From contig LVZN01000012.1 in NCBI GenBank assembly GCA_001695645.1, forward strand, positions 1-32,000: DNA of 32,000 nt, in the 5' to 3' direction. The notes beneath the pieces are model-generated. The model was not told the DNA's origin and made no database searches. It saw only the letters and a list, made by a program, of their open reading frames with translations. Positions 2,624 to 32,000 of the stretch are shown piece after piece. Both the position numbers and the translations under genes were made by a program. This DNA comes from Erysipelotrichaceae bacterium MTC7 (GTDB lineage: Bacteria; Bacillota_I; Bacilli_A; Erysipelotrichales; Erysipelotrichaceae). Numbering within the stretch: position 1 is the first letter of the stretch; each line of letters opens with the position of its first letter.

Positions 2624-2625
2624 TC

Positions 2626-3276: not shown

Positions 3277-3289
3277 AGGAGTAGAGCAA

Positions 3290-4114: not shown

Positions 4115-4118
4115 AAAG

Positions 4119-4532: not shown

Positions 4533-4546
4533 AGGAGGATTTTATA

Positions 4547-5017: not shown

Positions 5018-5038
5018 CTATAGACAGGAGGGAAGACA

Positions 5039-6653: not shown

Positions 6654-6659
6654 AAAAAC

Positions 6660-7298: not shown

Positions 7299-7301
7299 AT
7301 A

Positions 7302-7332
7302 AAACCGGCATGCGTTGGCATGTCGGTTTTTT
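7302..7332 (+). terminator. rho-independent terminator of the PTS operon
   Basis: ACCGGCATG (7304-7312) pairs with CATGTCGGT (7319-7327) with one G:U pair, followed by a T6 run. Confidence 0.8.
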
Positions 7333-7346
7333 GAAAGGAGGAATGC

Positions 7347-8729: not shown

Positions 8730-8814
8730 GCATAGTCGACTGAAACTTCATGCCAATGACGGATTTCATCGTTAACGTTTCTTCAATAAAGCATATGAAG
8801 AAAGGAGAAAAACG

Positions 8815-9255: not shown

Positions 9256-9260
9256 GAATT

Positions 9261-9290
9261 AAGCAAAGAGGTACATCTTCTTTGCTTTTC
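9261..9290 (+). terminator. rho-independent terminator
   Basis: AAGCAAAGA (9261-9269) pairs with TCTTTGCTT (9279-9287), followed by a T-run. Confidence 0.75.
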
Positions 9291-9358
9291 ATTTACGATA
9301 CATAAAGTTCATTAGTTACATAAAATCAATTTGTTGGCCTCCTCTTTTTGTTTTGATG

Positions 9359-9367
9359 TGGTATAAT
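9359..9367 (+). promoter_or_regulatory. extended -10 promoter element of the GntR pair
   Basis: TGGTATAAT (TGn + perfect TATAAT) lies 23 nt upstream of ATG 9390. No good -35 is present. Confidence 0.5.
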
Positions 9368-9389
9368 GAATCCGTAAAGAGGTTGTAGG

Positions 9390-10121
9390 ATGAAATTATT
9401 AACATTAGACATTATTGTCTGCAATGAAATTAAATATTTGATTGAAAACACACCACTTCAAGAAGGTGAAAAATTACCAAGTGAGCGTGAGTTAACAGAG
9501 CGATTTGAAGTTCAACGCGGAACGGTGCGAACAGGACTGAAATTGTTGCTACAAGAAGGTTGGATTTGCGCAAAAGAAAGAAGTGGATATTTTGTTGCAC
9601 CTCGGCGAATTGAAAAGAATGTGTATCGCATTTCTTCAACATCACAAACCGTTGCAGAAATGGGAAAAAAACAACGTTTGAAGCTGTTGTCAATTTCACG
9701 TCAAGAGGTGGGAAAAGATTTATCATTGAAGCTTAAGCTGCCAATAGGAACCAAGTACTATGCAATTGAACGTATACGTTATGTGGATGATGAAAAAGTT
9801 TCTTTGGAAACATCGGCTGTACCTTATAACGTAGCACCTGATTTAGATAAGAAAGATTTAGAGAGTCATTCATTATATGATGTGCTTGAAGATGATTACT
9901 TAAATAACATTGCGTTTTCTGAACAGGAAATTATTGTTGTCGAAAGTGATGAGTATCTAGCAAAGGCATTATCAATTCCAACTGGTCAAAAATTGGTTAA
10001 ACAGCAGGGACTTGTTATGTCAAAAGAAAAAGAACCGATTGAATACATCGAGGCATATATGCTGATGGATCGATTCGTATTTGTGAATAATGATTTATTA
10101 CCAAAGAAAGGAAGAAGCTAG
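9390..10121 (+). CDS. GntR-family transcriptional regulator, HutC subfamily (wHTH + UTRA)
   Basis: wHTH LPSERELTERFEVQRGTVRTGLKLLLQEGWICAKERSGYFV, followed by a C-terminal domain of about 160 aa, UTRA-sized. Confidence 0.85.
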   Translation: MKLLTLDIIVCNEIKYLIENTPLQEGEKLPSERELTERFEVQRGTVRTGLKLLLQEGWICAKERSGYFVAPRRIEKNVYRISSTSQTVAEMGKKQRLKLLSISRQEVGKDLSLKLKLPIGTKYYAIERIRYVDDEKVSLETSAVPYNVAPDLDKKDLESHSLYDVLEDDYLNNIAFSEQEIIVVESDEYLAKALSIPTGQKLVKQQGLVMSKEKEPIEYIEAYMLMDRFVFVNNDLLPKKGRS

Positions 10122-10122
10122 T

Positions 10123-10845
10123 ATGGATTATCGGATGCCGATTTATATCCAAATTAAGGATGCGATTATCAATAAAATTAATCATCAAGAATACTTACCC
10201 GGTGAAGCTATTCCTAGTGAAAGAAAACTAGCTGAAATGTATCAAGTCAATCGAATGACGGTAAAAAAAGCTATTGAGTCATTGGTTGAGGAAGGGTATT
10301 TATTTCGTATCCATGGAAAAGGGACTTTTGTACAAAGAAAGAACTCACAACGTTTGATTCTAGGTGGTGAAGATGCTTATGGAATTAGTGCTTTATTGCG
10401 TGAGCAAGGGGCTCATACAAAAGATATTGTACTAGAAAAAGGGATGTTAAAAGCATTCAACTATCTTGGTTCAAAACTAGAACTTGCTAAGTATGAAGAT
10501 GTATATTTGATTCATCGTTTACGTTGTGCAAATGATGCACCATTTGCAATGGAATATTGTTATTTGCCATTTAAGTACTTTGAAGACGTTGATGAACACA
10601 ACTTTGAACATGTTTCTGTTTATGATTACATGGAACGAAAGGGACGTTTCCCTCATAAATTTAAACAGCGGTTAATTATCATTGAAGCAGATGAGAAACT
10701 TGCGAAACAAATGGGAGTAAAAGAAAACGATTCACTGTATTATTTTGAATATATTGGTCAAGACAATGAAGGACATATTGTTGAGTACACTGAGAGTTAT
10801 CTGCGCTGCGACAAAGCCGTATTTACATACGAGGCAATTCGTTAA
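10123..10845 (+). CDS. GntR-family transcriptional regulator, HutC subfamily (second paralog)
   Basis: I start it at ATG 10123, 1 nt after the TAG of the previous gene. wHTH IPSERKLAEMYQVNRMTVKKAIESLVEEGYLFRIHGKGTFV, plus a UTRA-sized C-terminus. Confidence 0.85.
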   Translation: MDYRMPIYIQIKDAIINKINHQEYLPGEAIPSERKLAEMYQVNRMTVKKAIESLVEEGYLFRIHGKGTFVQRKNSQRLILGGEDAYGISALLREQGAHTKDIVLEKGMLKAFNYLGSKLELAKYEDVYLIHRLRCANDAPFAMEYCYLPFKYFEDVDEHNFEHVSVYDYMERKGRFPHKFKQRLIIIEADEKLAKQMGVKENDSLYYFEYIGQDNEGHIVEYTESYLRCDKAVFTYEAIR

Positions 10846-11123: not shown

Positions 11124-14100
11124 ATGTTAAAACTTAAAAACATCCGAAAGTCGTATAAAACACAGGATTTTGTGCAAGTTGCGTTGGATGATGTAACGGT
11201 TTCGTTTCGCGACAATGAGTTTGTTGCAATCTTAGGACCAAGTGGTTCTGGAAAAACGACCATGTTAAACATCATCGGTGGACTTGATCAATATGAATCA
11301 GGTGACTTAGAAATCGACGGGATATCAACAAAAAAATACAAATCATCGGATTGGGATACCTATCGTAACAATCGGATCGGTTTTGTGTTTCAAAGCTACA
11401 ACTTAATTCCACATCAAAGTGTACTGGCAAACGTAGAACTTGCCTTAACCATCAGTGGAGTTTCAAAGAAGGAACGTCACCAACGTGCGCTTGCTGCTTT
11501 AACTGAAGTGGGGTTAGCAGAACATGTAAAGAAGTTACCAAGTCAACTTAGTGGTGGACAAATGCAACGTGTTGCAATTGCAAGATCACTTATCAACAAT
11601 CCAGAAATCCTATTAGCTGATGAACCAACTGGAGCATTGGATACTAAAACCAGTGTACAAGTTATGGATTTACTCACAAAGATTGCAAAAGATCGTTTGG
11701 TCATTATGGTTACACATAACCCAGAATTGGCAGAAGATTATGCAAATCGAATTATCAATCTGCGTGATGGAAAAATCGAGAGTGATAGCAATACAGTAAC
11801 CCCTAAAGAAGAAGCTCAGGTAAAAACAGCAAAGAAACCACGAAAAGTGAATATGTCACTGTTTACGGCTTTGTCACTATCATTTAGTAACCTTCTATCG
11901 AAAAAAGGTCGAACGTTTATTACTTCGTTGGCTGGTTCCATAGGAATTATTGGAATTGCGGCAATCTTGGCATTAGCAAGTGGTATTAATGCATATATTG
12001 GTGACATTGAAGAAGATACAATGAGTATGTATCCGTTGACGATTCAAACCTCTGGTGTTGATATTACAAGTTTCTTAAGCAATGCACCAGCAAGTAGCGA
12101 TGAAAATCAAAACAAATCAAAAGGTGATATCGGTATTAATAATGTGTTCCAAACGATGTTTAGTTCACAAAATAAAAACGATTTAAAATCCTTGAAAGCG
12201 TATATTGAAAACAATCCAAATAAAATTGATCCATATGTAAAAAGTGTGCAATATACCTATGATGTTACCCCACAAATTTACTTGGGGGATAGTTCATCGA
12301 GTGTTTCGCAAGTAAGTCCAGATGCCTTAATGGCATCTTATGGATTTTCGTCAACATCAGGTATGAATGCAGTCATGGGAAGTAGTGTTTCCATGATGAA
12401 TAACTTCCATGAATTACCCGGTGACAGCAGTATGTACGATGAACAATACGACATTAAAGCGGGAAGATGGCCGACCAAATATGATGAAGCAGTTATGGTG
12501 TTATCAAACAGTGGTCGCATCTCGGATTATATGTTGTATTCTCTTGGCATCAATGATCGTGAAAAACTCAAACAAATGCTGGATGCATTTGTGAATGATC
12601 CTACAAAACAACTTGCCTTGGACAAATCCAATCAAAAAATTGATTATGATGATATACTTGCGGCAAACTTAAAAGTAATCAATCCATCAAGTAAATACGT
12701 TTATGATGAAGAGTATAAAGTTTGGTTAGATAAATCTGATGATGCTACGCATATGAAGCAGGTTATTCAGGAAGGAACCAATTTGAAAATCGTTGGTGTT
12801 GTTCAACCTGACCCTGATGCGAATGTGACATCATTGTCGATGGGAATCAATTATACACCTGCATTGATTAGTCACTTGATTGATGAGGCATCAAATCAAA
12901 AACTGGTAGAAGCACAGCTTGCAACACCAACAGTAAATGTATTGAGTGGAAAATCATTTGCGATTGAAACAGAAGAGAACCGTCAAAATCAATTCGATGT
13001 TTCTTCTTTATTTTCGGTGAATGAACAAGCAATACGTTCTGCATTTAACATTGATACTTCAAAATTGCAATTTGATACGTCATCTTTGTTTAATTTTGAT
13101 ATTTCTAATATAGAACTTCCACCAATGGATATAAGTGGTTTAACTGCACAACTTGCAGGACAGGTACAAATTCCAACAGACCAACTGACGTCGATATTTA
13201 CAGGTGTATTGGAAGATTTCATCGCTGAACAAGTCAGTGCAGGAGTTAGCGATCCTGCAGAATTTATGCAAAACTTAGCAGCGTATTTGAATCGGGCTGA
13301 TGTGCAACAAAAAGTCAGCAATCAATTGCAAAGTGTAATTACAGATTCTGGCGTAAGTGATCAAGTTAGCAGTGTGGTGCAAAACTACATGGCAACAACG
13401 ATGCAAAGTTATATGACAGAGTTGTTTGCATCGGTGCAAGGACAAATTCAAAAACAAATGGAAAGTGCCATGGCACAACTTCCATATCAACTACAAAACG
13501 CCTTAACCATTGATACAAGTGCCTTGCAACATGCTTTTAGCATCAATGTGACTGAAGATGATATGGTGGATTTAATTATGGCGATGATGAATCCAAAAGA
13601 AACATCTTTTGAAAACAATCTAAAAACATTTGGTTATGCCAATAAAGAAGCACCAAATCAGATTAATATTTATCCAAAAGACTTTACGACAAAAGAGCAT
13701 ATCATCTCATTCTTAGATACTTACAATAACAAAATGAAAACCGCAGGTGATGACAACAAGGTGGTTCGCTACACGGACTTGGTTGGAACACTGATGTCAT
13801 CGGTAACTGATATTGTGGATACGGTAAGTTATGCATTGGTTGCTTTTGTGGCAATTTCACTAGTAGTATCTAGTATTATGATTGGTGTCATTACCTATAT
13901 TTCTGTTTTGGAACGTAAAAAGGAAATTGGAATTTTACGTGCGATTGGGGCAAGTAAGCGGGATATCCGTCGTGTTTTCAATTCAGAAACGTTGATTATC
14001 GGATTTACTGCTGGTGCCATAGGAATCATAGTTACCTATCTTATTAGTATTATTGCCAATATCATTGTCTATGACAAAATCGGGATTGCCAATATTGCCC

Positions 14101-14225
14101 AACTATCACCAATTGCCGCAGGTATCTTGATTTTAATCAGTATGTTTTTAGCGTTTATTGCAGGACTGATTCCTTCATCTGCAGCTGCTAGAAAAGATCC
14201 AGTAGAGGCATTACGAAGTGAATAA
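11124..14225 (+). CDS. fused ABC transporter ATP-binding protein/FtsX-family permease (MacB-type, single polypeptide)
   Basis: N-terminal ATPase with Walker A GPSGSGKTT, signature LSGGQMQRVAIARSL, Walker B LLADEPTGALD and H-loop VTHN. TM1 spans about residues 245-290, followed by roughly 570 aa of soluble insert. The C-terminal FtsX block is ERKKEIGILRAIGASKRDIRRVF plus 3 TM. Confidence 0.85.
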   Translation: MLKLKNIRKSYKTQDFVQVALDDVTVSFRDNEFVAILGPSGSGKTTMLNIIGGLDQYESGDLEIDGISTKKYKSSDWDTYRNNRIGFVFQSYNLIPHQSVLANVELALTISGVSKKERHQRALAALTEVGLAEHVKKLPSQLSGGQMQRVAIARSLINNPEILLADEPTGALDTKTSVQVMDLLTKIAKDRLVIMVTHNPELAEDYANRIINLRDGKIESDSNTVTPKEEAQVKTAKKPRKVNMSLFTALSLSFSNLLSKKGRTFITSLAGSIGIIGIAAILALASGINAYIGDIEEDTMSMYPLTIQTSGVDITSFLSNAPASSDENQNKSKGDIGINNVFQTMFSSQNKNDLKSLKAYIENNPNKIDPYVKSVQYTYDVTPQIYLGDSSSSVSQVSPDALMASYGFSSTSGMNAVMGSSVSMMNNFHELPGDSSMYDEQYDIKAGRWPTKYDEAVMVLSNSGRISDYMLYSLGINDREKLKQMLDAFVNDPTKQLALDKSNQKIDYDDILAANLKVINPSSKYVYDEEYKVWLDKSDDATHMKQVIQEGTNLKIVGVVQPDPDANVTSLSMGINYTPALISHLIDEASNQKLVEAQLATPTVNVLSGKSFAIETEENRQNQFDVSSLFSVNEQAIRSAFNIDTSKLQFDTSSLFNFDISNIELPPMDISGLTAQLAGQVQIPTDQLTSIFTGVLEDFIAEQVSAGVSDPAEFMQNLAAYLNRADVQQKVSNQLQSVITDSGVSDQVSSVVQNYMATTMQSYMTELFASVQGQIQKQMESAMAQLPYQLQNALTIDTSALQHAFSINVTEDDMVDLIMAMMNPKETSFENNLKTFGYANKEAPNQINIYPKDFTTKEHIISFLDTYNNKMKTAGDDNKVVRYTDLVGTLMSSVTDIVDTVSYALVAFVAISLVVSSIMIGVITYISVLERKKEIGILRAIGASKRDIRRVFNSETLIIGFTAGAIGIIVTYLISIIANIIVYDKIGIANIAQLSPIAAGILILISMFLAFIAGLIPSSAAARKDPVEALRSE

Positions 14226-16544: not shown

Positions 16545-16661
16545 CTTTGTATATTTCATAAATAAGATATGGTAAGATAAAAGTGTAAATAGGGGTCCAA
16601 GTTTTTATTTCATTCAATAATGAATGAAACGATACGTTAAAAAGTGTTGAGGAGGGAATAT

Positions 16662-18293
16662 ATGGTGCTTGTTAGTTGGAAAAATGCATTTGCATCTCAT
16701 CTTTTAGCACGAGGTGAAATGTATTTTAAAAAAGGTTTAGTTTCGACTGTCGAAAGGAAAGGTGATAGGTATGAAGCCAATGTTTATGGAACGAGCACCT
16801 ATGACACGTCTGTGGTAGTTAGCGATGAACTACTTACAGATGCAAAGTGTAGTTGTCCAAGTTTCAAGTTTGGAAATTTATGTAAGCATTTAGCTGCTTT
16901 ATTATTTGAATTGGAAGATGCAAAAGTAATTCCTATATATGTAGACATGAATTTAAAAGTTGACATATTTGTGGAAAAAGACAAAACAAGCACAAACTAT
17001 GCTAGATATAAACTACGTAAAGAGAATCCGTTTCAGAAGATACAAAAAAGAAATGCAATCACAAATTTGCATACATTTGAAATGACGTTAGAATCCATCC
17101 ATGATTCTTTTATTGATTATGATGAGGATTACATTGATGATGAAGCCAGTGAGTTTTATGCGGAAGAAGTATTAGAAGAAACCACACGTAGTGTATATGT
17201 TTTACTGGAAGAAAACCAAATACGAAAAGCATATGAACTTGTGATGATTGCCTTAAAAAGGCTTTCGTATAGTGATGCATCTGATGCGTTTGGTTATTTA
17301 GAACAAACGAAACAAGCGTATTGTGAATTACTATATCAAGTGATTCACAAAGCAAGTATAAAAGAAAAAAAAGAATTATTGATGCTCATTGATGAATTTT
17401 GGAAAGATAATATATGCACTCTTGATGATGTGTATGTAATTGCTTTACTGGAAGAAGCCTTTGATGAGTTATTGATTCGAGAACGATTGCATGTTCTAGA
17501 AAATTTTCTTATGTCGTATGTTGATGAAAACAGAGGATACCGAAAAAATGAAGTAGCAGTGTTGTGGTTTTTAGCTCTAGAGAAATTACTTACGAAGATA
17601 GGTCATACATACGAGATTGATCGAATTTATGAACAGTATAGTAAAACGCTAGAAATCAAGGTATATCGATTTTGGCAGTTGTTGGAACAACGAAAGGATG
17701 AACAATTGATTTCGTACCTTGAACAAGAAGTGGAGAATTTTGATTTTATCGCAAACATAGTGCAATATGCGAATCAAATAAAAGCCTGTTACAAGCGACT
17801 AAAGCGCGAAAATGATTATTATGTATTCGTCCAAAAAATACTATTCGATTTAAATGTCGGTGATTATACTATGTATCGTGATTATCGGAGTCAAGTTAGT
17901 TTATTTTGGTGGGAGCATCAAGGTTACAACATGGTAAAAAAACTGAAATTTATGGAAAGACCACGCGTGTATATACAAGAAGGAATGTATGATTTATTGC
18001 TTGATTATGCGCGAGGATTGCCTAATCAAGAAATGGATTATTATGTTGATATTTTAAAAGAGATATATCCACAAGAACTACTAGAGTATTATGAACAAGA
18101 ATTTATTCGTTTGTCTACACCGCGTACTAACGAATATGGAATTCCGCCTATCATCCACACATTGCGTATGTTGCAACGTATTGATGGTGGTAAACAAAAA
18201 GCAAAGAAGTTGATTCAAATATATGCAATGAAGTATCCAAATCGCAAACGTCTAAACCAAGAAATGCAAGTGTTTGAAAACCAATACTTGTAA
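16662..18293 (+). CDS. SWIM zinc-finger domain protein with long helical C-terminal region, function unknown
   Basis: I start it at ATG 16662 (SD GAGGAGGG). The SWIM signature is CSCPSFKFGNLCKHLAALL (CxCx(n)CxH) near residue 65. The remaining ~450 aa are rich in E/Y/L/K, with no Walker or nuclease motif seen by eye. Confidence 0.75.
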   Translation: MVLVSWKNAFASHLLARGEMYFKKGLVSTVERKGDRYEANVYGTSTYDTSVVVSDELLTDAKCSCPSFKFGNLCKHLAALLFELEDAKVIPIYVDMNLKVDIFVEKDKTSTNYARYKLRKENPFQKIQKRNAITNLHTFEMTLESIHDSFIDYDEDYIDDEASEFYAEEVLEETTRSVYVLLEENQIRKAYELVMIALKRLSYSDASDAFGYLEQTKQAYCELLYQVIHKASIKEKKELLMLIDEFWKDNICTLDDVYVIALLEEAFDELLIRERLHVLENFLMSYVDENRGYRKNEVAVLWFLALEKLLTKIGHTYEIDRIYEQYSKTLEIKVYRFWQLLEQRKDEQLISYLEQEVENFDFIANIVQYANQIKACYKRLKRENDYYVFVQKILFDLNVGDYTMYRDYRSQVSLFWWEHQGYNMVKKLKFMERPRVYIQEGMYDLLLDYARGLPNQEMDYYVDILKEIYPQELLEYYEQEFIRLSTPRTNEYGIPPIIHTLRMLQRIDGGKQKAKKLIQIYAMKYPNRKRLNQEMQVFENQYL

Positions 18294-18314
18294 TATATAT
18301 AAGGGAGATCAATC

Positions 18315-19880
18315 ATGAAATTAATGGACTATGTTAACAGTATAGAAAAAGAAGAAGTATACGAAATGTATGCGAAGTTAGTCAAAAAAACGAAAGCTTA
18401 TCATAATATTACAAGAAAGCAAATGGCACAAAATATAATAGATGTCTATGCAACCTTTGATCAAGAAATGTTTGATCGGTTTATCAATACGGAGGAGTAT
18501 AAAATATTGTATCATGCATTGAAGCAACCGTACGATATGCCACTGTTAAATACTGCTGTAGATACACTCATGGACAAAGGGATTTGTCACGTTTACTTCA
18601 ACAAGCAAAAACAAAACTTGGAGATTCAAATCTTTGATGAGTTTGTTCCTATGATCAAAACATTTGTAAAAACAGAAAAGCCGTCAAAAAAGATGCAAAA
18701 AGAAAGTGATTTCTATTTTGCATTGGTCGGCTATGTGTTTTCACAAGCTGCCTGTCCACTCAATGTGACAATGAAGAATCTTGCAAGTTTACTTGACTGT
18801 AGTGAACTGGAATTGGAACATTGGTTTTTAACTTCAAAATCGATGCCGTTCGTGATAAGTTTGATTAATGATGACACCATGTTTGAAGATGATTCATATC
18901 ATTTGGTACTAAATAACTTAACTGAACAGTATACGGAAATACTTGATGCACGCGATCAACTTGGCGATGATTTTCCCATTCTACTTTTAAGTTTAAAAGA
19001 ATACATTGAACTTGGAAAGACGTATTTATCATACTGGGACCTAAATGTTAAAAAATTCATCAAATATTTGGAAAGTATAAAGAAACTTCCACTGTTTCGT
19101 GGCGATTTACTCAACATCTTTATTGACTTGACAATGTTTTCCATGAAGTCAGATCGTTATATGGAATATTTAGTAGCGCAATTTGAACAACATTATCCAG
19201 ATAAGGATAGTGAGAAATTTATGAAAATCATGGATAAAGCATTTATGAATTCAGTGTCGGCAATGTTAGGCGCGAATAAACCAATTGAATTTATGATGTT
19301 GATGGATGGCAAAAAAGAATCAAAACAGCAACACGCGCATCTAAGTGAAAGTGATGCCAATCTTTTTTATGAATTGTATTTCGCTTTGCTTGAGTTCGTA
19401 AATAAAAAACGTAAAGTTGTTCGAAAAGGAAAACTCAAGTTGTATAAAAAAACTAACCATAATCCGATGGAAGTTGCCGCTATACGCGATGCTTTGTTTG
19501 AGGACCTTGGATTGATTGATGCATTTGTTAAAGAGAATCCTTATAAGTTTAACCAGGAAAAGTTGGATATGGTCGCTGCATTTCGTTTAGGTAAGTCGGA
19601 TATTTTTACACTTACAAGCTTTGAAAAGGAGTATACGGTTTTGCTTGGTCAACAACATCGATATGCGGTTTTGGGTTTACGAACAAACCTCGATGAAATC
19701 TATCGTGGATCACTACCAAGAGCAATAAAGACTGCCTTACTGCCATTTAAAGGGAAGATAGTTTTTGATGGTATGTTTGCAGAACTACCAATCGAGATGG
19801 GCAAAGGGATGAGAGACATGATTGATCAAGAACTTAAAGAACTTCCTTTATTAACAAGCTTTAACGTTCTATACCATTAA
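18315..19880 (+). CDS. hypothetical protein (521 aa), no recognisable domain
   Basis: Long ORF with SD AAGGGAGA, 21 nt after the SWIM gene. It has no TM segments, signal peptide or catalytic motif that I can recognise. Confidence 0.7.
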   Translation: MKLMDYVNSIEKEEVYEMYAKLVKKTKAYHNITRKQMAQNIIDVYATFDQEMFDRFINTEEYKILYHALKQPYDMPLLNTAVDTLMDKGICHVYFNKQKQNLEIQIFDEFVPMIKTFVKTEKPSKKMQKESDFYFALVGYVFSQAACPLNVTMKNLASLLDCSELELEHWFLTSKSMPFVISLINDDTMFEDDSYHLVLNNLTEQYTEILDARDQLGDDFPILLLSLKEYIELGKTYLSYWDLNVKKFIKYLESIKKLPLFRGDLLNIFIDLTMFSMKSDRYMEYLVAQFEQHYPDKDSEKFMKIMDKAFMNSVSAMLGANKPIEFMMLMDGKKESKQQHAHLSESDANLFYELYFALLEFVNKKRKVVRKGKLKLYKKTNHNPMEVAAIRDALFEDLGLIDAFVKENPYKFNQEKLDMVAAFRLGKSDIFTLTSFEKEYTVLLGQQHRYAVLGLRTNLDEIYRGSLPRAIKTALLPFKGKIVFDGMFAELPIEMGKGMRDMIDQELKELPLLTSFNVLYH

Positions 19881-27117: not shown

Positions 27118-27600
27118 TTATCGAATTTCAAATAAAACGGTTTTTTTACATTCACTAACTCCACGGGTTTTAAAATTGGTCATATGATAAAACTGTGCAT
27201 CTAACAAGATAACGGGTATGACAACCTGATCTTGGTTTTGACGGTATTCGTCAGGCGAATACTCAAGAATTTTATCACCTTGTTTCACAAATGAACCATT
27301 GGCTACTAATGGAGTGAATGTTTCGCTTTTGCTTGAATCGGTTTGTAGACCGATGTGAATTAAAATAATTGCATTATGGTTTGTTTTAATACAAATGGCA
27401 TGTTTTGAACGGATGGCCCATTGAATGGTTCCATCAACTGGTGCATACACTGCATTTGCATTTGTCTTAATGGCAATACCTTCACCAACCAAGCGTTGCG
27501 AAAATACGGGGTCATTGATTTCATCGAGTGAAACAATGGTACCTTGAATAGGGGAATATACGCGAACTCGTTTGTTTTTCTTACCAAACAAATGAAACAT
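27118..27600 (-). CDS. PTS glucose-family EIIA (Crr-like)
   Basis: PVFSQRLVGEGIAIKT and VYAPVDGTI are present. The two-His active site is HAICIKT...IILIHIGLQT, matching the HA.G....G.E.L.H.G.DT pattern. 160 aa. SD GAGGT. Confidence 0.9.
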   Translation of the reverse strand: MFHLFGKKNKRVRVYSPIQGTIVSLDEINDPVFSQRLVGEGIAIKTNANAVYAPVDGTIQWAIRSKHAICIKTNHNAIILIHIGLQTDSSKSETFTPLVANGSFVKQGDKILEYSPDEYRQNQDQVVIPVILLDAQFYHMTNFKTRGVSECKKTVLFEIR

Positions 27601-27659: not shown

Positions 27660-27688
27660 TTCAAAATTAGTGAATTGATTGGTATACT
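27660..27688 (+). promoter_or_regulatory. sigma-A-type promoter of the EIICB-like/antiterminator/EIICB operon
   Basis: TTCAAA at 27660-27665, a 17-nt spacer ending in TGG, and TATACT at 27683-27688. It sits back-to-back with the EIIA promoter. Confidence 0.55.
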
Positions 27689-27720
27689 ATAAGAAGCGTT
27701 TATTAACAAAAGGAGGGTCT

Positions 27721-28998
27721 ATGCATTTTATAAAAAACTATGCGAAAAGTTTATTGTATCCATACATTTGTTTACCTATCCTTTATCTTTTCAATCAGTT
27801 TGGTTGGTTTTTAGATCGAGAATTAGACATGCAGTTTGGTCGCTTATTTACGGAACTCTACGAAGCTTATCAAAGTTATCTACCACTTTTATTAGCGGCT
27901 AGTTTTTCAATGTTTTTTGCGAAGCGGAAGGATGGAACAAGTGTACTAAGTGGTATCATTGCATATGTCGTGTTAATTCACATTGTTGCTAATGACACTT
28001 TAGCTTTAGCATTACCTAATGACACTTCTATCTTAGCGTTTGATTTTACGAGTTTTCAAAATCCCTTTGTTGGTATTGTTTCAGGTATGTTTGCCGCACA
28101 AATCTACAATCGTTTTTACCAAGTGCAACTGCCGCAAGCCTTAGCCTTCTTTTCAGGAAGACGTTTGGTGCCCATTGTCACTGGGATTGTGATGATTGTA
28201 TTTGGTTGTGTACTTATTTTGATCTGGCCTTGGCTCTATCAACTTTTAGAAAGTGCAAGTCAGCTAGCTAAGTTGACAAGCCCGTTTGGATCGATTCTTT
28301 ATATGTGGCTGCAAACCTTGCTTTCTTTTGTTGGATTACAGGATGTTGCAATGCAAGAAGGTATTCAAGTATTTACCGAAGGGCAAGAACAGGCATTTCG
28401 TGTATTGATTCCAGCCATCATCGCAGTATTTTACATTTCAAAGTTCCAAGCGAATGTAAAACAAAGTGGATTGCTATTTATCATGGTTGGATTAGGAGCA
28501 ATTGGTCCATCAAATCCAGTGCTCTTTACTTATTTGTTACTGGCAATTCATCCACTTTATGTATTGGTTTTTTATGGACTACAAAGTGTTTTATTACTTT
28601 GGCAAGTATCGCTAGTTCCAAATGATGTACTATTTGTGGTTATTTCTTTAGTTTTACATGTTGCCTGCTTTTGGTATTTACGAAATCGCATACCGATGCA
28701 ACTTAACGCCAAGATGCTACAAAGTCTGTCCAAGCAAGACATCAGCAACTTTGTATATGCCATTGGTGGTATAGAAAACATTGTGACATTACATATTGCT
28801 GATGAAAAACTATACATTGTCTTAGAAGATGAGATTTTGCTGCGCAAACAAGAAATCGACAATTTACCAAAATATATACGTACACAGGTTATGGATAACG
28901 AATTGATTGTTGAAGGAATTTCACCAAAAGTACTCTATGATGCTTTGGATGCGCACATCAAACAAGATGATGAATCGTTAATGATATTGGGGGGCTAA
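27721..28998 (+). CDS. degenerate PTS glucose-family EIIC-EIIB-like membrane protein (catalytic motifs lost)
   Basis: I start it at ATG 27721 (SD AAAGGAGGG). The EIIC-Glc-like block YNRFYQVQLPQALAFFSGRRLVPIV is kept. The HH motif is replaced (VGLQDV) and GITEPxEF is replaced (GAIGPSNPVLF). The C-terminal EIIB-like fold AIGGIENIVTLHIADEKLYIVLED lacks the CITRxR phospho-Cys. Confidence 0.7.
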   Translation: MHFIKNYAKSLLYPYICLPILYLFNQFGWFLDRELDMQFGRLFTELYEAYQSYLPLLLAASFSMFFAKRKDGTSVLSGIIAYVVLIHIVANDTLALALPNDTSILAFDFTSFQNPFVGIVSGMFAAQIYNRFYQVQLPQALAFFSGRRLVPIVTGIVMIVFGCVLILIWPWLYQLLESASQLAKLTSPFGSILYMWLQTLLSFVGLQDVAMQEGIQVFTEGQEQAFRVLIPAIIAVFYISKFQANVKQSGLLFIMVGLGAIGPSNPVLFTYLLLAIHPLYVLVFYGLQSVLLLWQVSLVPNDVLFVVISLVLHVACFWYLRNRIPMQLNAKMLQSLSKQDISNFVYAIGGIENIVTLHIADEKLYIVLEDEILLRKQEIDNLPKYIRTQVMDNELIVEGISPKVLYDALDAHIKQDDESLMILGG

Positions 28999-28999
28999 C

Positions 29000-29827
29000 A
29001 TGAAAATTGTTCGAATTTATAATAACAACGTAGTTGTTGCCATAGAAGATGGAAAAGAGTATGTCGTAACAGGAAACGGTATTGGGTTTCAACGAAAGGT
29101 AAATGATAAGGTAGATAAGACACGCATTGAAAAAATGTACACGTTTGAGGACCAACAAAAGAAGCAATTTCATGAATTGCTAAATCGTACACCCATTGTG
29201 TATTTTCAAATTGCAGAAGCTATTGCCAACAAAGCAATTGAGGAGCTACAAATTGAACTATCCAATCAAATATTCATTTCACTGACGGATCACCTTTGGT
29301 ATGCTGCGGATCGTAAGAAGCGAAATTTGGAAATACCAAATTTGATGCATGATGAAATAAAAAGTTTATACAAAGATGAATATCGAATTGGGTTGTGGGC
29401 ATTACGCCTAATTCAAGCAAATTTAGGGATTCAATTTTCTAAAGATGAAGCAAGTTATATCGCCATGCACATTGTCAATGCAACTGTTGGAAATCAGGTA
29501 CGTGATGCAAAGCGCATTGTAGCATTCGTTAAAGATGTACAAACGGTCATTGAAAATGTCTTTGGAATTTCGTTTGCCGATGAATCACTTGATACGTCAC
29601 GGTTGAGTACACACCTCAAATTTCTAGCGCAACATATTTTTGTCAAAGAGAAAAAAGAACCGTTAAATCTTGATCAAATGTATACCTTAATGATTAATAA
29701 ACATGAAAAGATGGAATTATGTGTAGAAAATATTTTTGATATTGTGAAGTTGAATTATCATTACACTTTGTCTAAGGATGAACTTGTATATTTGATGATT
29801 CACATTAACAAGATTGTAAGCCTATGA
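29000..29827 (+). CDS. BglG/LicT/SacY-family PRD-containing transcriptional antiterminator
   Basis: The CAT domain is MKIVRIYNNNVVVAIEDGKEYVVTGNGIGFQRK. Two PRDs carry four His in the expected contexts (LTDHLWYA, IAMHIVNA, LSTHLKFL, LMIHINKI). The start is 1 nt after the upstream stop. Confidence 0.9.
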   Translation: MKIVRIYNNNVVVAIEDGKEYVVTGNGIGFQRKVNDKVDKTRIEKMYTFEDQQKKQFHELLNRTPIVYFQIAEAIANKAIEELQIELSNQIFISLTDHLWYAADRKKRNLEIPNLMHDEIKSLYKDEYRIGLWALRLIQANLGIQFSKDEASYIAMHIVNATVGNQVRDAKRIVAFVKDVQTVIENVFGISFADESLDTSRLSTHLKFLAQHIFVKEKKEPLNLDQMYTLMINKHEKMELCVENIFDIVKLNYHYTLSKDELVYLMIHINKIVSL

Positions 29828-31263
29828 TGAATTATCTGCAAAGAATAGGGAAGTCTTTACTATTACCAATTGCAATTTTTCCGATTGCGGCAATATTAAT
29901 TGGTGTAGGGACAATCATTCAATCGGTTGATCATCAACTCGTGCAGTTTCTTGCAGAGATTTTACGCATTTCTGGAGAAGCAATTGTTTCTTATATTCCT
30001 ATGGCGTTTGCTGTTGGAGTTGCATATGGATTGAGTGACGGAAACAAAGGTGTGAGTGCATTTGGTGGTTTGTTTGTATTTCTAATTATTATTCATGTGC
30101 TTGCACAAGAGCGTATCGATTTACACAATTTACCTGTTTTGAATGAAAATGCTCCATTTGAACATATTGACAACCAGTTTATTGGAATTTTATCAGGAGT
30201 ACTTGGGGCTGTCAGTCACAATCGTTTAAGACGCTTACACCTATCAAGCAGCAATGAAATGGTGCTGTTGCTTGTACTTTTGGTTTTTGTTTCGCTGTGC
30301 ATGTGTGGAATTTTGGTGTTTGTGTGGCCGTTTGTTTATAATTTGCTCATTCGCTTTGGTAATTTCATTAGTGCTTTAGGACCGGTGGGTGCAGGCATCT
30401 ATGCATTTTTCAATCGCTTATTGATACCCATTGGGATGCACCATCCACTGAACTCTGTCTTTTGGTTTGATGTAGTTGGAATCAACGATATTGGAAACTT
30501 CTGGTCAAGTCAGGGAGTCTATGGACAAACAGGAATGTACCAAGCCGGTTTCTTTCCGATGATGATGTTTGGTTTACCAGCTGCTGGTTTAGCTATGCTG
30601 CATACTGCTTATCCACAAAACAAAAAGAAAGTTCGTGCGTTTTTGATTTCGGCTGCATTTGCCTCTTTTTTCACTGGTTTGACTGAACCGTTAGAATTTT
30701 CATTTATGTTTATCGCCCCTCAGTTATACCTACTGCACGCGATAATTACGGGTATATCTGTATTTGTTGCAGCACAATTTCAGTGGATTGCCGGGTTTAG
30801 CTTTAGTGGTGGTTTTATTGATTATATACTAAGTTTAAAAATGCCATACGCAAAAACACCATTGATGTTGGTTGTGATGGGGCTAGTTTTAGCTGCTGTG
30901 TATTACGTTAGTTTTGTTTATGTAATTAAACGAAAAAACTTACATACCTTAGGTAGGGAAGTTGAAACCCACGCAGTAACCAATACTTTAGAAATTAATG
31001 AACTCGAAAACATATGTACCGCACTTATGTATGCTACTGGTGGACTGCACAACATAACATCCATTGATTGCTGTATTACACGTGTACGCTTTCATTTAAA
31101 AAATCCAAATTTGTTCAACTTTGATCTAGTTAAGGAAACCGGTGCTATCGAGTTTATGCAGTTCGGTGATGAAATTCAAATCGTTTATGGACCGAATGCC
31201 GGTGCAATCGTGGAACGCTTTGAGCAAATATTAGGGATGAACAAAGATGACAAAGACCAGTGA
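29824..31263 (+). CDS. PTS glucose/beta-glucoside-superfamily EIICB component
   Basis: EIIC motifs are LIPIGMHHPLN and GLTEPLEFSFMFIAP. The C-terminal EIIB carries the phospho-Cys context ATGGLHNITSIDCCITRVRF. Its ATGA start overlaps the antiterminator gene. Confidence 0.85.
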   Translation: MMNYLQRIGKSLLLPIAIFPIAAILIGVGTIIQSVDHQLVQFLAEILRISGEAIVSYIPMAFAVGVAYGLSDGNKGVSAFGGLFVFLIIIHVLAQERIDLHNLPVLNENAPFEHIDNQFIGILSGVLGAVSHNRLRRLHLSSSNEMVLLLVLLVFVSLCMCGILVFVWPFVYNLLIRFGNFISALGPVGAGIYAFFNRLLIPIGMHHPLNSVFWFDVVGINDIGNFWSSQGVYGQTGMYQAGFFPMMMFGLPAAGLAMLHTAYPQNKKKVRAFLISAAFASFFTGLTEPLEFSFMFIAPQLYLLHAIITGISVFVAAQFQWIAGFSFSGGFIDYILSLKMPYAKTPLMLVVMGLVLAAVYYVSFVYVIKRKNLHTLGREVETHAVTNTLEINELENICTALMYATGGLHNITSIDCCITRVRFHLKNPNLFNFDLVKETGAIEFMQFGDEIQIVYGPNAGAIVERFEQILGMNKDDKDQ

Positions 31264-31321: not shown

Positions 31322-31350
31322 TTGACAATGGATAAAGAATTGTTTAAAAT
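31322..31350 (+). promoter_or_regulatory. strong sigma-A-type promoter preceding the RAT leader
   Basis: TTGACA at 31322-31327, an exact 17-nt spacer, and TAAAAT at 31345-31350. Confidence 0.7.
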
Positions 31351-31376
31351 GAAATCACAACTAAATCGATACGGTT

Positions 31377-31403
31377 AGATTGTTACTAGAAATAGGCAAG
31401 ACT
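31377..31403 (+). promoter_or_regulatory. RAT (ribonucleic antiterminator) element, LicT/SacY class
   Basis: AGATTGTTACTAGAAATAGGCAAGACT compared with the canonical GGATTGTTACTG-loop-CAGGCAAAACC. The lower stem AGAUU/AGACU keeps the A.A mismatch seen in bglP/licS RATs. The upper stem is CUA/UAG capped by a GAAA loop. Confidence 0.8.
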
Positions 31404-31448
31404 TACGAAATCACGTTACAACGGATTTTCATCGTCTTGTCTTTTTTA
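31397..31448 (+). terminator. RAT-overlapping conditional rho-independent terminator
   Basis: CAAGAC (31397-31402) pairs with GTCTTG (31434-31439), with a second helix CGAAATC/GATTTTC(G). It is followed by TCTTTTTT. The 5' arm is shared with the 3' half of the RAT. Confidence 0.75.
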
Positions 31449-31496
31449 TTAGCAAATAAATCGATCGATAAGCAAACATTTAAATCTTACAATTTG

Positions 31497-31531: not shown

Positions 31532-31637
31532 AGCATTTCAGTCGATAAATAAAGGATTTATGAAAGCTTCATTTTCTCTTGAAATAATTATTTACAATAA
31601 TCATTATGCATGATAACATATCGCTGTAATCGTTTTC

Positions 31638-31651
31638 AAAAAGCGCTTACA
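31638..31651 (+). promoter_or_regulatory. cre-like (CcpA) box
   Basis: AAAAAGCGCTTACA; its reverse complement is TGTAAGCGCTTTTT. It has 2 mismatches to TGWAANCGNTNWCA, and one half-site is perfect. Confidence 0.35.
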
Positions 31652-31777
31652 ACATTTGTATTTTAATGATCATACGATACTTTGTGGGGAATCAAGAGAC
31701 AGGTCAACTACATAAGTAACAAGGTTGGGGAAGCCAGTATGCATGATTGAAATACATCGTTAAAAAAGGAGAGACAA

Positions 31778-32000
31778 ATGATTAAATTGATGAAGTCACT
31801 GTTATGTGCAGGGGTTGCTATTGTTTCCACAAGCACATATATGCCTAATGTGACATTCCAAAAGAACGAATTACAAAGTGATGTACAAACGGAAAATGAA
31901 ATATTTCCACAACAGCCTAAAGAGGTAAGTTTAGATGGAACTGCACTGCAAGTAAGTAACATTACGTTACATAAAGCAGCTACAATGAACCAAGATACTT
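31778..32000 (+). CDS. secreted protein, N-terminal fragment (runs off the window)
   Basis: This ORF is not in the ORF track because it is open to the window end. ATG 31778 with SD AAGGAGAG. The frame is open for 74 codons. The N-terminus MIKLMKSLLCAGVAIVSTS looks like a signal peptide. Confidence 0.6.
   Translation, partial: MIKLMKSLLCAGVAIVSTSTYMPNVTFQKNELQSDVQTENEIFPQQPKEVSLDGTALQVSNITLHKAATMNQDT

What the first reader, a model, noticed from the sequence alone, without database searches (positions are those of the whole stretch)
27721..28998. PTS EIIC-EIIB paralog with all catalytic motifs lost, translationally coupled to a LicT-type antiterminator
The protein is clearly homologous to glucose-family EIICB. 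It keeps the block YNRFYQVQLPQALAFFSGRRLVPIV, the NVKQSG block and a C-terminal EIIB fold beginning AIGGIENIV. The functional residues, however, are gone:
- The EIIC His-His motif reads VGLQDV, whereas the neighbouring functional paralog has IPIGMHHPLN.
- The sugar-binding GITEPxEF motif reads GAIGPSNPVLF, versus GLTEPLEF.
- The EIIB phospho-cysteine motif reads LHIADEKLYIVL, versus IDCCITRVRFHL. That gives Cys->Ala/Ile and loss of both Arg residues.

Its stop (28996-28998) is 1 nt from the antiterminator ATG (29000). The antiterminator in turn overlaps a catalytically intact EIICB gene.

BglG/LicT antiterminators are normally controlled by phosphorylation from their cognate EIIB. In some systems they are controlled by membrane sequestration at the permease. 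A non-phosphorylatable pseudo-permease encoded first in the operon could act as a dedicated membrane anchor, sensor or decoy for the antiterminator. I am not aware of such an arrangement having been described.
Basis: partly seen in the sequence, partly recalled or inferred. Interest (0 to 1): 0.65.

Follow-up and report, generated by a model that had tools for sequence, protein, structure and literature searches.

The report
Dead sugar-permease paired with live twin
A gut bacterium keeps, under selection, a catalytically dead copy of a sugar-uptake protein that is always encoded with an RNA-binding switch and a live copy lacking exactly the one loop the dead copy preserves, which suggests the two copies work as a lopsided pair that senses sugar.

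Summary
ORF 27721-28998 encodes a 425-aa glucose/GlcNAc-family EIICB homolog. It lacks the HH motif, the GxTEPxEF motif, the KTPGRE linker and the EIIB Cys/Arg site. It lies 1 nt upstream of a LicT-type antiterminator gene, which overlaps an EIICB gene.

It is not decaying. At least 21 sequence clusters (18-50% identical to the window protein) share the same losses and deletions, and dN/dS is 0.096. In all 11 lineages examined the gene order is pseudo-EIICB, antiterminator, EIICB.

The new finding is complementary degeneration. The best-conserved block of the pseudo family is the TM4-TM5 cytoplasmic loop (LPxxLAFFSG[KR]RxVPI). In E. coli PtsG this loop gates the sugar site of the opposite protomer. 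Every partner EIICB has deleted this loop but keeps all catalytic residues.

The best explanation (about 0.55) is an obligate asymmetric heterodimer with one working transport/phosphorylation unit. This would act as the sugar sensor for the co-encoded antiterminator. The antiterminator's RAT/terminator targets lie outside the cassette; here one lies at 31373-31450, ahead of a GH84-type hydrolase gene.

I found no prior description. I rate it a new variant of a known kind, with interest about 0.68.

The parts
27118..27600 (-). Divergently transcribed EIIA(Glc)-type gene, 160 aa. Both active-site His contexts are present (SKHA, LIHIG).
   Evidence: Pfam PTS_EIIA_1 E = 1.2e-37. TIGR00830 scores above its cut-off. 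The gene holds the same position in L001, L004, L006 and L014.
27660..27688 (+). Promoter-like site of the cassette (TTCAAA-17-TATACT with an extended TG). Only about 32 nt separate it from the ATG, which leaves no room for a RAT/terminator.
   Evidence: The short leader is equally RAT-free in L001, L004, L007-L010, L014 and L019.
27721..28998 (+). Pseudo-EIICB gene, 425 aa. It has a canonical scaffold domain (residues 1-205), a shrunken degenerate transport domain (206-325) and a Cys-less EIIB-fold domain (338-425).
   Evidence: dN/dS.
28117..28179 (+). Codons for residues 133-153 (YQVQLPQALAFFSGRRLVPIV). This is the TM4-TM5 cytoplasmic-loop block and the best-conserved element of the pseudo family. 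It is equivalent to E. coli PtsG residues 136-156, which include F146 and R151.
   Evidence: Conservation is 0.76 here against 0.28-0.51 elsewhere. P138, F143, F144, S145, G146 and P151 are invariant. Mapping to PtsG. Trans-acting role in PtsG from PMC11393339.
28330..28347 (+). VGLQDV (residues 204-209), at the position of the lost GLHHxLN sugar-site/gate motif.
28495..28527 (+). GAIGPSNPVLF (residues 259-269), at the position of the lost GxTEPxEF motif (PtsG T297/E298).
28789..28824 (+). LHIADEKLYIVL (residues 357-368), the former EIIB active-site loop. Ala360 replaces the phospho-Cys, and TRxR reads EKLY.
   Evidence: The loop is not conserved within the family.
29000..29827 (+). LicT/BglG-type antiterminator, 275 aa (CAT plus PRD1 plus PRD2). 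All four PRD histidines are present (H98, H157, H205, H268).
   Evidence: Pfam CAT_RBD and PRD. NCBIfam LicT scores 257.6 bits. The His residues are invariant in alignment A6.
29824..31263 (+). Partner EIICB, 479 aa, GlcNAc-type. Catalytic residues are intact (HH, GLTEPLEF, CCITRVR), but the cytoplasmic-loop block is deleted.
   Evidence: In the AF2 model a 5-residue turn joins TM4 and TM5. The membrane domain matches PtsG 8QSR with TMt 0.79.
31322..31350 (+). Promoter-like site TTGACA-17-TAAAAT (11 of 12 consensus positions), just upstream of the RAT.
31373..31406 (+). RAT element (GGTTAGATTGTTACTAGAAATAGGCAAGACTTAC), the likely binding site of the antiterminator.
   Evidence: Single exact match in the window, with 0.09 expected by chance. 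The hairpin is shared by 8 loci, and 7 of 12 pairs show compensatory changes. A near-identical RAT occurs in L004 and L014.
31394..31450 (+). Intrinsic terminator. Its 5' arm overlaps the 3' half of the RAT, and a T-run follows.
   Evidence: MFE -27.5 kcal/mol, z-score -5.7.
31778..32000 (+). Start of a secreted GH84/GH20b-type N-acetylglucosaminidase-like gene, cut by the window end. It is the probable RAT-gated target.
   Evidence: 77% identical over 74 aa to the 1117-aa L001 protein, which has Glyco_hydro_20b, NAGidase and NagJ_C domains.

Best explanation
The ORF encodes a conserved, catalytically dead EIICB paralog (pseudo-EIICB). It most likely serves as the obligate dimer partner of the EIICB encoded two genes downstream.

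Glucose-family EIIC proteins work as dimers. In these dimers the TM4-TM5 cytoplasmic loop of one protomer reaches over and gates the sugar site of the other. Here the two paralogs have degenerated in complementary ways:
- The pseudo copy keeps a canonical scaffold (dimerisation) domain and that loop. It has lost the sugar-binding residues, parts of the transport domain and the phospho-cysteine.
- The partner keeps every catalytic residue. It has deleted the loop and remodelled its own interface residues.

A pseudo:partner heterodimer would therefore contain exactly one complete transport/phosphorylation unit, made of the pseudo copy's loop and the partner's transport domain and EIIB.

The cassette has no RAT of its own. 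It is therefore probably expressed without sugar induction and acts as a sensor. The phosphorylation state of the single live EIIB, fed by the adjacent EIIA, would set the activity of the co-encoded LicT-type antiterminator through its conserved PRD histidines. The antiterminator would then read through RAT/terminator elements in front of neighbouring catabolic genes. In this window the target is a GH84-type hydrolase gene. In related genomes the targets are a nagB string or an Exo_endo_phos gene.

Shown here: the degeneracy, its conservation and selection, the synteny, the complementary motif pattern and the RAT/terminators.

Inferred: heterodimer formation, sensor rather than bulk-transport function, and which RAT each antiterminator binds.
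For: 1. Real family, not decay.
- At least 21 clusters of about 413-436 aa share the same losses and the same deletions.
- dN/dS is 0.096 overall: 0.062 for the scaffold half, 0.127 for the degenerate half and 0.092 for the pseudo-EIIB domain.

2. Strict three-gene cassette.
- The order pseudo-EIICB, antiterminator, EIICB holds in 11 of 11 lineages, down to 22-30% identity.
- Gene gaps are -23 to +31 nt.
- Pairwise identities of the three genes co-vary, with r = 0.90-0.96.

3. Complementary degeneration.
- The loop block is the most conserved region of the pseudo family (0.76 against 0.28-0.51; six invariant residues).
- All partner EIICBs lack it. These are the 16 closest of 120 homologs, the clade P0225-P0238, P0242 and P0249. 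The other 104 have it: 103 match an FFSGKR-type pattern, and P0334 (FYGGKR) was missed by the pattern.

4. Role of the loop in PtsG cryo-EM structures (PMC11393339; residue mapping).
- F146' is a 'crucial' cytoplasmic gate of the opposite protomer's sugar site.
- F146'(N) H-bonds S286, and R151 contacts S21'.

5. Partner-clade changes at positions that meet the opposite loop.
- The S286 equivalent is Ser/Thr in 15 of 15 partners, against Ala in 96 of 104 canonical proteins.
- The gate motif is AGFSFS in 14 of 15 partners, against AGFGFS in 79 of 104.
- The M17 equivalent is Leu in 11 of 14, against Met in 93 of 93.

6. The interface 'DG' loop (PtsG D75/G76).
- Asp is present in 103 of 104 canonical proteins, 17 of 21 pseudo proteins and 0 of 16 partners.

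7. AF2 models.
- The pseudo model has a helix at 139-144 between TM4 and TM5. The partner model has only a 5-residue turn there.
- The pseudo transport half matches PtsG poorly (TMt 0.50), whereas the partner matches well (0.79).

8. Regulation.
- There is no RAT ahead of the cassette in any lineage. RAT/terminators lie in adjacent transcription units.
- The antiterminator keeps all four PRD histidines.
Against: - No direct evidence of a physical heterodimer. No multimer prediction or co-evolution analysis was possible.
- The clade-specific substitutions in the partner could be neutral synapomorphies.
- The PtsG authors conclude that protomers 'function independently', so loss of the loop might be tolerated in a partner homodimer.
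- The function of the conserved pseudo-EIIB domain and its family-specific C-terminal tail is not explained by heterodimerisation alone.
- In L001 and L006 the only nearby RAT precedes a second EIIA-antiterminator-EIIBC cassette. RAT assignment to the cassette's own antiterminator is therefore inferential.
- In L011 transcription from a RAT-controlled promoter might read into the cassette.
Confidence: 0.55

Rival explanations
1. The pseudo-EIICB is a dedicated membrane anchor, decoy or scaffold for the antiterminator. Its non-phosphorylatable EIIB-like domain would mimic permanently dephosphorylated EIIB and hold or present the antiterminator at the membrane, independently of any heterodimer with the partner EIICB.
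For: - The pseudo gene always lies immediately upstream of the antiterminator gene, with gaps of 1-14 nt or an overlap.
- The EIIB fold is retained and is under purifying selection (dN/dS 0.092).
- GGxENI and a family-specific C-terminal tail (E..SL-hydrophobic) are conserved.
- There are precedents for regulators held at an EIIB domain: BglG at BglF, and Mlc at dephospho-EIIB(Glc) (PMC12591593; PMC13482132).
Against: - The former active-site loop of the pseudo-EIIB, which is the usual partner-contact face, is among the least conserved positions (0.21-0.40).
- This model does not explain why the cytoplasmic-loop block is the most conserved element of the pseudo family.
- It does not explain why every partner EIICB has lost that block.
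- No interaction test was possible.
Confidence: 0.2
2. The pseudo-EIICB is a regulatory or accessory subunit of the partner transporter that does not form a canonical EIIC-type dimer. It could act, for example, as an inhibitor, a stabiliser or a membrane-insertion helper.
For: Strict co-occurrence and co-divergence with the partner. The pseudo gene evolves faster than the partner.
Against: The scaffold domain, including interface elements such as the DG loop and the cytoplasmic loop, stays canonical. That is what is expected if the canonical dimer geometry is retained.
Confidence: 0.1
3. The protein is still a transporter or channel of its own, for another substrate and without PTS phosphorylation.
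For: The protein remains a polytopic membrane protein with about 7 hydrophobic helices in its C-terminal half. It is under purifying selection.
Against: - All residues that bind sugar in PtsG are missing (E202/R203 context, H211/H212, T297/E298, and the F337 segment).
- Two structural segments of the transport domain are deleted.
- The degenerate half is the least conserved membrane part (0.40).
- This model does not explain the linkage to the antiterminator or the loop-less partner.
Confidence: 0.05
4. The gene is a decaying duplicate with no function.
For: It has lost all catalytic motifs. It evolves about twice as fast as its neighbours. In one metagenomic contig (L017) the gene is split into 320-aa and 93-aa ORFs.
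Against: - Intact ORFs of constant length occur in at least 21 clusters.
- dN/dS is about 0.1 with unsaturated dS.
- The same deletions are shared across lineages that are only 18-30% identical.
- Conserved blocks and strict synteny are maintained.
Confidence: 0.02

Closest known systems
E. faecalis NagY-NagE-HylA (a BglG/SacY-type antiterminator with a GlcNAc EIICBA and a RAT-controlled glycosaminoglycan-degrading enzyme; PMC9981650, PMC12502629)
   Same: Both have a LicT/SacY-type antiterminator encoded directly upstream of a GlcNAc-type PTS permease. Both have RAT hairpins that overlap an intrinsic terminator. Both have a second RAT target in front of a secreted enzyme that degrades host glycans.
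   Different: The nagY-nagE operon is autoregulated by a RAT in its own 5'UTR and has no pseudo-permease. Here the cassette has no RAT, starts with a dead EIICB paralog, and its live EIICB lacks the cytoplasmic loop.
B. subtilis sacX-sacY (EII-like sucrose sensor gene upstream of the SacY antiterminator gene)
   Same: The gene order is an EII-type membrane protein followed by the antiterminator. The EII protein acts mainly as a regulator of the antiterminator (PMC12591593; the sensor role of SacX is my own knowledge of the literature).
   Different: SacX is a phosphorylation-competent EIIBC, and sacXY carries a RAT. The pseudo-EIICB here has no phospho-Cys, no sugar-site residues and no RAT, and a second, live EIICB follows the antiterminator.
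E. coli PtsG (IICB-Glc) homodimer and its trans-acting cytoplasmic loop (8QSR/8QST; PMC11393339)
   Same: Both the pseudo protein and its partner have the same fold family. The block conserved in the pseudo protein corresponds to PtsG L140-I155, including the F146 gate and R151.
   Different: PtsG is a symmetric homodimer in which both protomers carry the loop and the active site. Here the loop and the active site are split between two different gene products.
Regulators held at the membrane by EIIB domains (Mlc-PtsG EIIB; BglG-BglF)
   Same: In both, a soluble transcription regulator is controlled by contact with the cytoplasmic EIIB domain of a permease (PMC13482132; PMC12591593). The pseudo-EIIB model superposes on the EIIB chain of the Mlc/EIIB complex 3BP8_C.
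   Different: In those systems the EIIB is catalytically active, and its phosphorylation state gates binding. Here the EIIB-like domain cannot be phosphorylated, and its former active-site loop is not conserved.
Transporter-derived sensors and heterodimeric transporters with one degenerate site (UhpC, Snf3/Rgt2; heterodimeric ABC exporters). This comparison rests on my own knowledge and was not tested here.
   Same: The concept is shared: a transporter paralog loses transport and keeps a signalling or structural role, or a dimer keeps only one catalytically competent half.
   Different: The protein families are unrelated. To my knowledge, and from the literature searches, no PTS glucose-family example has been described.

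Membership tests
PTS EIIC, glucose/GlcNAc family (Pfam PF02378; NCBIfam TIGR01998 NagE/NagP-type IIBC) | Profile match above the curated cut-off | tested here: inconclusive
   PF02378 scores 79.5 bits, above its 30.7 cut-off, but the match covers only residues 38-272. TIGR01998 scores 126 bits against a cut-off of 553 and covers only residues 2-209. The protein is a superfamily member but not an equivalog.
PTS EIIC, glucose/GlcNAc family | Sugar-binding and gating residues of the transport domain (PtsG H211/H212, T297/E298 in GITEP, and the F337 segment) | tested here: not met
   All are absent in the window protein and in all 21 family members. The segment holding the F337 equivalent is deleted.
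PTS EIIC, glucose/GlcNAc family | Scaffold (dimerisation) domain with the TM4-TM5 cytoplasmic loop LPxxLxFFxGKRxVPI | tested here: met
   Residues 137-152 are invariant or nearly invariant in the family. The AF2 model has a helix at 139-144.
PTS EIIC, glucose/GlcNAc family | Complete EIIC fold (scaffold domain plus full transport domain with HP1 and HP2) | tested here: inconclusive
   Foldseek matches PtsG and MalT with probability 1.0. However, TMt is only 0.45-0.54 and rmsd 7.6-8.5 A against the four solved EIIC chains, whereas the partner gives 0.79 and 3.9 A against 8QSR.
PTS EIIB, glucose type (Pfam PF00367) | Profile match | tested here: not met
   No PF00367 hit at E <= 0.1. The precomputed Pfam annotation of all family members lists PF02378 only.
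PTS EIIB, glucose type | Split alpha/beta-sandwich EIIB fold | tested here: met
   3BP3_A gives TMt 0.78, 3BP8_C 0.76 and 1O2F_B 0.80, with rmsd 2.0-2.2 A.
PTS EIIB, glucose type | Phosphorylatable Cys with flanking Arg residues (CxTRxR) | tested here: not met
   The window protein reads A-D-E-K-L-Y. No family member has Cys at this position.
BglG/LicT-type antitermination system (for the cassette as a whole) | Antiterminator with a CAT RNA-binding domain, two PRDs and four conserved His | tested here: met
BglG/LicT-type antitermination system | RAT hairpin overlapping an intrinsic terminator | tested here: met
   Window 31373-31450. The hairpin is conserved, with compensatory changes, in 8 loci.
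BglG/LicT-type antitermination system | RAT/terminator in the leader of the operon that encodes the cognate permease (autoregulated layout as in bglGFB, nagYE, sacXY and ptsG) | tested here: not met
   No RAT lies upstream of or inside the cassette in any lineage. The leaders are only about 30 nt long. The RATs lie in adjacent transcription units.
BglG/LicT-type antitermination system | Phosphoryl transfer from the cognate EIIB to PRD1 | not testable with these tools
   The partner EIIB Cys and the PRD1 histidines are present. Transfer itself needs biochemistry.
Pseudogene | Disrupted reading frame or neutral evolution (dN/dS near 1) | tested here: not met
   Intact ORFs occur in 10 of 11 lineages examined. 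dN/dS is 0.096 at dS 0.50.

The most novel reading that the evidence does not exclude
The pseudo-EIICB, the loop-less EIICB and the LicT-type antiterminator form one three-protein signalling complex. This would be the first natural heterodimeric glucose-family EIIC, in which a dead protomer supplies in trans the cytoplasmic gate for the single live protomer. The dead protomer's non-phosphorylatable EIIB-like domain and its conserved C-terminal tail would dock the antiterminator next to the one live EIIB. The result would be a dedicated, constitutively expressed sugar receptor rather than a bulk transporter.
Probability: 0.3. Interest if true: 0.8.

Novelty: new variant of a known kind. Interest (0 to 1): 0.68.

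Why it matters
All structurally characterised glucose-superfamily EIIC transporters (PtsG, MalT, ChbC) are symmetric homodimers. Whether their protomers cooperate is still debated.

A naturally split pair would be a ready-made genetic system for testing that question. One subunit keeps only the scaffold and the trans-acting gate loop. The other keeps only the catalytic transport domain and the phospho-cysteine. The pair could show what the loop does in trans and whether one active protomer is enough.

It would also add a pseudo-enzyme subunit to the PTS/antiterminator sensing scheme. In addition, it defines an unannotated protein family, currently labelled only 'PTS transporter subunit EIIC', in Erysipelotrichaceae-type gut bacteria. 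There it appears to gate genes for host-glycan and amino-sugar use, namely a GH84-type hydrolase and nagB.

Tried and rejected
- **Classical RAT pattern.** TGTTACTG-N7-CAGGCA gave only chance-level hits. The real RAT has a shorter loop and was found by reading the intergenic sequence.
- **Rfam.** No match at gathering thresholds anywhere in the window.
- **Family size.** The first single-sequence homolog search suggested only 3 members. That was a limit of the word index, and the exhaustive profile search raised the number to about 18-21 clusters.
- **Genome scan.** It returned only Breznakia blatticola, because the peptide patterns it chose were too lineage-specific.
- **P0334.** My regex flagged it as loop-less, but it carries FYGGKR. 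It was reclassified as canonical, and its locus L018 has two intact EIICBs.
- **Heterodimer prediction.** Not attempted.
- **Organism names.** None were returned for the abundant metagenomic clusters.
- **Pseudogene reading.** Considered and rejected.
- **Cre box in the cassette promoter.** Considered but not convincing, so not claimed.
Full report

Yes. ORF 27721-28998 (+) is preceded by AAGGAGGG at 27710-27717 and encodes 425 aa.

Its profile matches are partial. Pfam PTS_EIIC scores 79.5 bits over residues 38-272, and there is no PTS_EIIB hit. The best NCBIfam model is GlcNAc-type IIBC. That match covers only residues 2-209 and scores 126 bits against a cut-off of 553.

Alignments with the downstream paralog and with canonical NagP-type EIICBs confirm every motif statement:
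- GLHHxLN reads GLQDV.
- GxTEPxEF reads GPS--NPVLF.
- The KTPGRE linker is gone.
- CxTRxR reads A-D-E-K-L-Y.
- YNRFYQVQLPQALAFFSGRRLVPIV and AIGGIENIV are kept.

The losses are accompanied by deletions of about 21 and 26 residues in the transport domain.

The stop codon is 1 nt from the antiterminator ATG at 29000. The antiterminator stop overlaps the ATG of the next EIICB gene at 29824.

An AF2 model built on 21 family sequences is confident (pLDDT 86.8, pTM 0.73). By Foldseek it is an EIICB(Glc)-type protein. Its C-terminal domain superposes on solved EIIB(Glc) structures 3BP3, 3BP8_C and 1O2F_B with TMt 0.76-0.80 and rmsd about 2 A.

**2. Decay or function?**

A single-sequence search found only two relatives with the same architecture. 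An exhaustive profile search of 1.84 billion representatives found about 15 more full-length proteins of roughly 420 aa, and a profile search of the 90% clusters added three.

All 21 aligned members share the same features:
- They lack HH, TEPxEF, the linker and the EIIB Cys.
- They carry the same deletions.
- They keep LPxxLAFFSG[KR]RxVPI and GGxENI.
- They have a family-specific C-terminal tail of the form E-x-x-x-S-L-hydrophobic.

The best pair for measuring selection is metagenomic L001 against Breznakia blatticola DSM 28867 (L006). They are 91% identical in protein, and dS is 0.50. NG86 dN/dS is 0.096 overall, 0.062 for the scaffold half, 0.127 for the degenerate membrane half and 0.092 for the pseudo-EIIB domain. 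The neighbouring genes give 0.019 (antiterminator), 0.032 (EIICB) and 0.075 (EIIA).

The gene is therefore under purifying selection, although it evolves about twice as fast as its neighbours.

**3. Context**

In every lineage for which DNA could be fetched, the order is pseudo-EIICB, then a LicT-type antiterminator of 274-282 aa, then an EIICB. The gene junctions range from a 23-nt overlap to a 31-nt gap.
- The lineages are the window, L001-3, L004/5, L006, L007, L008, L009, L010, L011-13, L014/15 (Breznakia pachnodae), L016/17 and L019.
- Pairwise identities of the three genes co-vary across nine loci, with r = 0.90-0.96.
- Named members are all Erysipelotrichaceae: B. blatticola, B. pachnodae, Breznakia sp. 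PF5-3 and strain MTC7. The window is probably from a related organism; this is an inference.
- A divergent EIIA(Glc) gene flanks the cassette in the Breznakia-type loci.

**4. The unexpected part: complementary degeneration**

The 'intact' downstream EIICB keeps HH, GxTEPLEF and CCxTRxR. However, it lacks the LPxALAFFSGKRxVPI block and has a 4-5 residue deletion there. This holds in all lineages, including those only 44% identical to the window's partner.

Among the 120 closest homologs of the partner, the 16 nearest (46-99% identity) lack the block and the rest have it. P0334 has FYGGKR and was first misclassified by my regex. Every loop-less EIICB that I looked up sits in a cassette with a pseudo-EIICB.

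Conversely, the block is the best-conserved part of the pseudo family. Weighted conservation is 0.76, against 0.28-0.51 for all other regions. P138, F143, F144, S145, G146 and P151 are invariant.

Mapping onto E. coli PtsG places the block at L140-I155. The PtsG cryo-EM paper (PMC11393339) reports the following:
- F146'(N) H-bonds S286 in the outward-facing state.
- R151 contacts S21' at the dimer interface.

The loop therefore acts in trans. A pseudo:partner heterodimer would bring the only loop together with the only competent transport domain.

Further observations are consistent with this:
- At the S286 equivalent, partners have Ser/Thr in 15 of 15 sequences, against Ala in 96 of 104 canonical relatives.
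- The gate motif is AGFSFS in 14 of 15 partners, against AGFGFS in 79 of 104 canonical relatives.
- The M17 equivalent is Leu in 11 of 14 partners, against Met in 93 of 93.
- The interface 'DG' loop (PtsG D75/G76) keeps Asp in 103 of 104 canonical and 17 of 21 pseudo proteins, but in 0 of 16 partners.
- In the AF2 models the pseudo protein has a helix at 139-144 between TM4 and TM5. The partner has only a 5-residue turn.
- The partner's membrane domain fits PtsG well (TMt 0.79, rmsd 3.9 A), while the pseudo protein's does not (TMt 0.50, rmsd 8.4 A).

**5. What the antiterminator controls**

The cassette has no RAT. Only about 32 nt lie between the -10 box and the ATG, and the same is true in the other lineages.

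Downstream of the partner gene there is a strong promoter match at 31322-31350. It is followed by a RAT at 31373-31406 (GGTTAGATTGTTACTAGAAATAGGCAAGAC). The 3' half of the RAT overlaps a terminator that ends in a T-run at about 31450 (fold z-score -5.7). The next gene starts at 31778 and is the ortholog of a 1117-aa GH84/GH20b NagJ-like hydrolase.

RATs in the related loci:
- L004 and L014 carry almost the same RAT, downstream of the divergent EIIA gene and upstream of an ATP_bind_3/nagB gene string.
- L010 and L011 carry a ptsG-type RAT ahead of an Exo_endo_phos gene.
- In L001 and L006 the nearby RAT precedes a second EIIA-antiterminator-EIIBC cassette.

Eight RATs fold into a common hairpin, with compensatory changes in 7 of 12 pairs. 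All four PRD histidines of the antiterminator are invariant.

The cassette therefore looks like a sensing module that is not itself sugar-induced and whose outputs are neighbouring catabolic genes. This is an inference.

**6. Mechanism proposed and alternatives**

The best-supported model, at about 0.55, is an obligate asymmetric heterodimer. The pseudo subunit provides the canonical scaffold and the trans-acting gate. The partner provides the only transport domain and the only phosphorylatable EIIB. The phosphorylation state of that EIIB, fed by EIIA, controls the antiterminator through PRD1.

The EIIB-like fold and a conserved C-terminal tail are selected for something. However, the former active-site loop is poorly conserved, and the idea does not explain the loop complementarity.

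The remaining alternatives are a non-canonical accessory subunit (0.1), an independent non-PTS transporter (0.05) and a decaying duplicate (0.02).

**7. Comparison with known systems, and novelty**

The closest regulatory analogue is E. faecalis NagY-NagE-HylA (PMC9981650). It shares the antiterminator type, the permease type and a RAT-gated glycan-degrading enzyme. It differs in being autoregulated and in having no pseudo-permease.

B. subtilis sacXY has the order EII-like sensor followed by antiterminator, but SacX is catalytically competent (plus my own knowledge). Mlc-PtsG and BglG-BglF show regulators held at EIIB domains.

Full-text searches for degenerate or heteromeric EIIC proteins linked to antiterminators found nothing.

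L018 has two intact EIICBs flanking an antiterminator, and its RAT precedes the first EIICB. It may resemble the ancestral state.

I classify the finding as a new variant of a known kind: a PTS/antiterminator sugar-sensing module that has acquired a pseudo-subunit and a split of functions between two paralogs.

**8. Limits**

- No physical interaction was tested, and no multimer prediction was possible.
- The clade-specific substitutions may be phylogenetic signal only.
- The assignment of RATs to antiterminators is inferred.
- Most family members come from unnamed metagenomic contigs.

Noticed in passing
window 29824-31263 (partner EIICB), residues ~137-141: The 'functional' EIICB lacks the conserved LPxALAFFSGKRxVPI cytoplasmic loop, as do all 16 of its closest relatives. 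This became the centre of the explanation.
   Followed up: yes
window 31560-31777; L001 5650-5857: The hydrolase leader is conserved between the window and L001. It holds two cre-like boxes (TGTAATCGTTTTCA and AAAGCGCTTACA) and a conserved block TTTGTGGGGA..AAGAGACAGG of unknown role. The window alone has the extra promoter, RAT and terminator (about 190 nt) upstream of this leader.
   Followed up: partly
L018 1376-5499: This locus has two fully intact EIICBs, both with the loop, HH, TEP and Cys, flanking a LicT-type antiterminator. A RAT/terminator lies ahead of the first EIICB, and a terminator-like hairpin lies between it and the antiterminator. It is a possible ancestral-like state of the cassette.
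   Followed up: partly
L010 145-1131 (-), L011 2868-3752 (+), L019 4221-5105 (-): An Exo_endo_phos (EEP) family gene of about 294-328 aa recurs next to the cassette in three distant lineages. In L010 and L011 it lies directly behind a ptsG-type RAT/terminator. Its function in this context is unknown.
   Followed up: partly
L007, L008, L009, positions 1-25: Three independent metagenomic contigs begin within 7 nt of the same point in the RAT sequence (CATGCCTAATTTAATAGTAACATG), two of them at its first base. This suggests that the RAT is repeated in those genomes, with several targets, and breaks assemblies.
   Followed up: no
L017 2107-3328: In this contig the pseudo-EIICB is split into ORFs of 320 aa and 93 aa. 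The sister contig L016 has the C-terminal 222 aa in one frame. The split may be a frameshift error, a strain-level inactivation or a natural separation of the pseudo-EIIB domain.
   Followed up: no
L001 9319-11266; L006 11650-14671: A second cassette (EIIA, antiterminator of 289 aa, EIIBC of 455 aa) with its own promoter, RAT and terminator lies just downstream in the B. blatticola-type loci. Cross-talk between the two antiterminators and their similar RATs is possible.
   Followed up: partly
window 297-10845: This region holds two SIS-domain proteins, a HAD hydrolase, a xylose-isomerase-like TIM-barrel protein and a complete mannose-family PTS (EIIA, EIIB, EIIC, EIID). These are followed by a MatE transporter, a GNAT acetyltransferase and two tandem GntR/UTRA regulators. 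It looks like an amino-sugar or glycated-substrate utilisation island.
   Followed up: no
window 16644-19880: A 549-aa protein with an N-terminal SWIM zinc finger is followed by a 521-aa protein with no Pfam match. The function of the pair is unknown.
   Followed up: no
window 11124-14225: A 1033-aa protein fuses an ABC ATPase domain at the N-terminus with an FtsX-type permease domain at the C-terminus. A GDSL lipase gene follows it.
   Followed up: no
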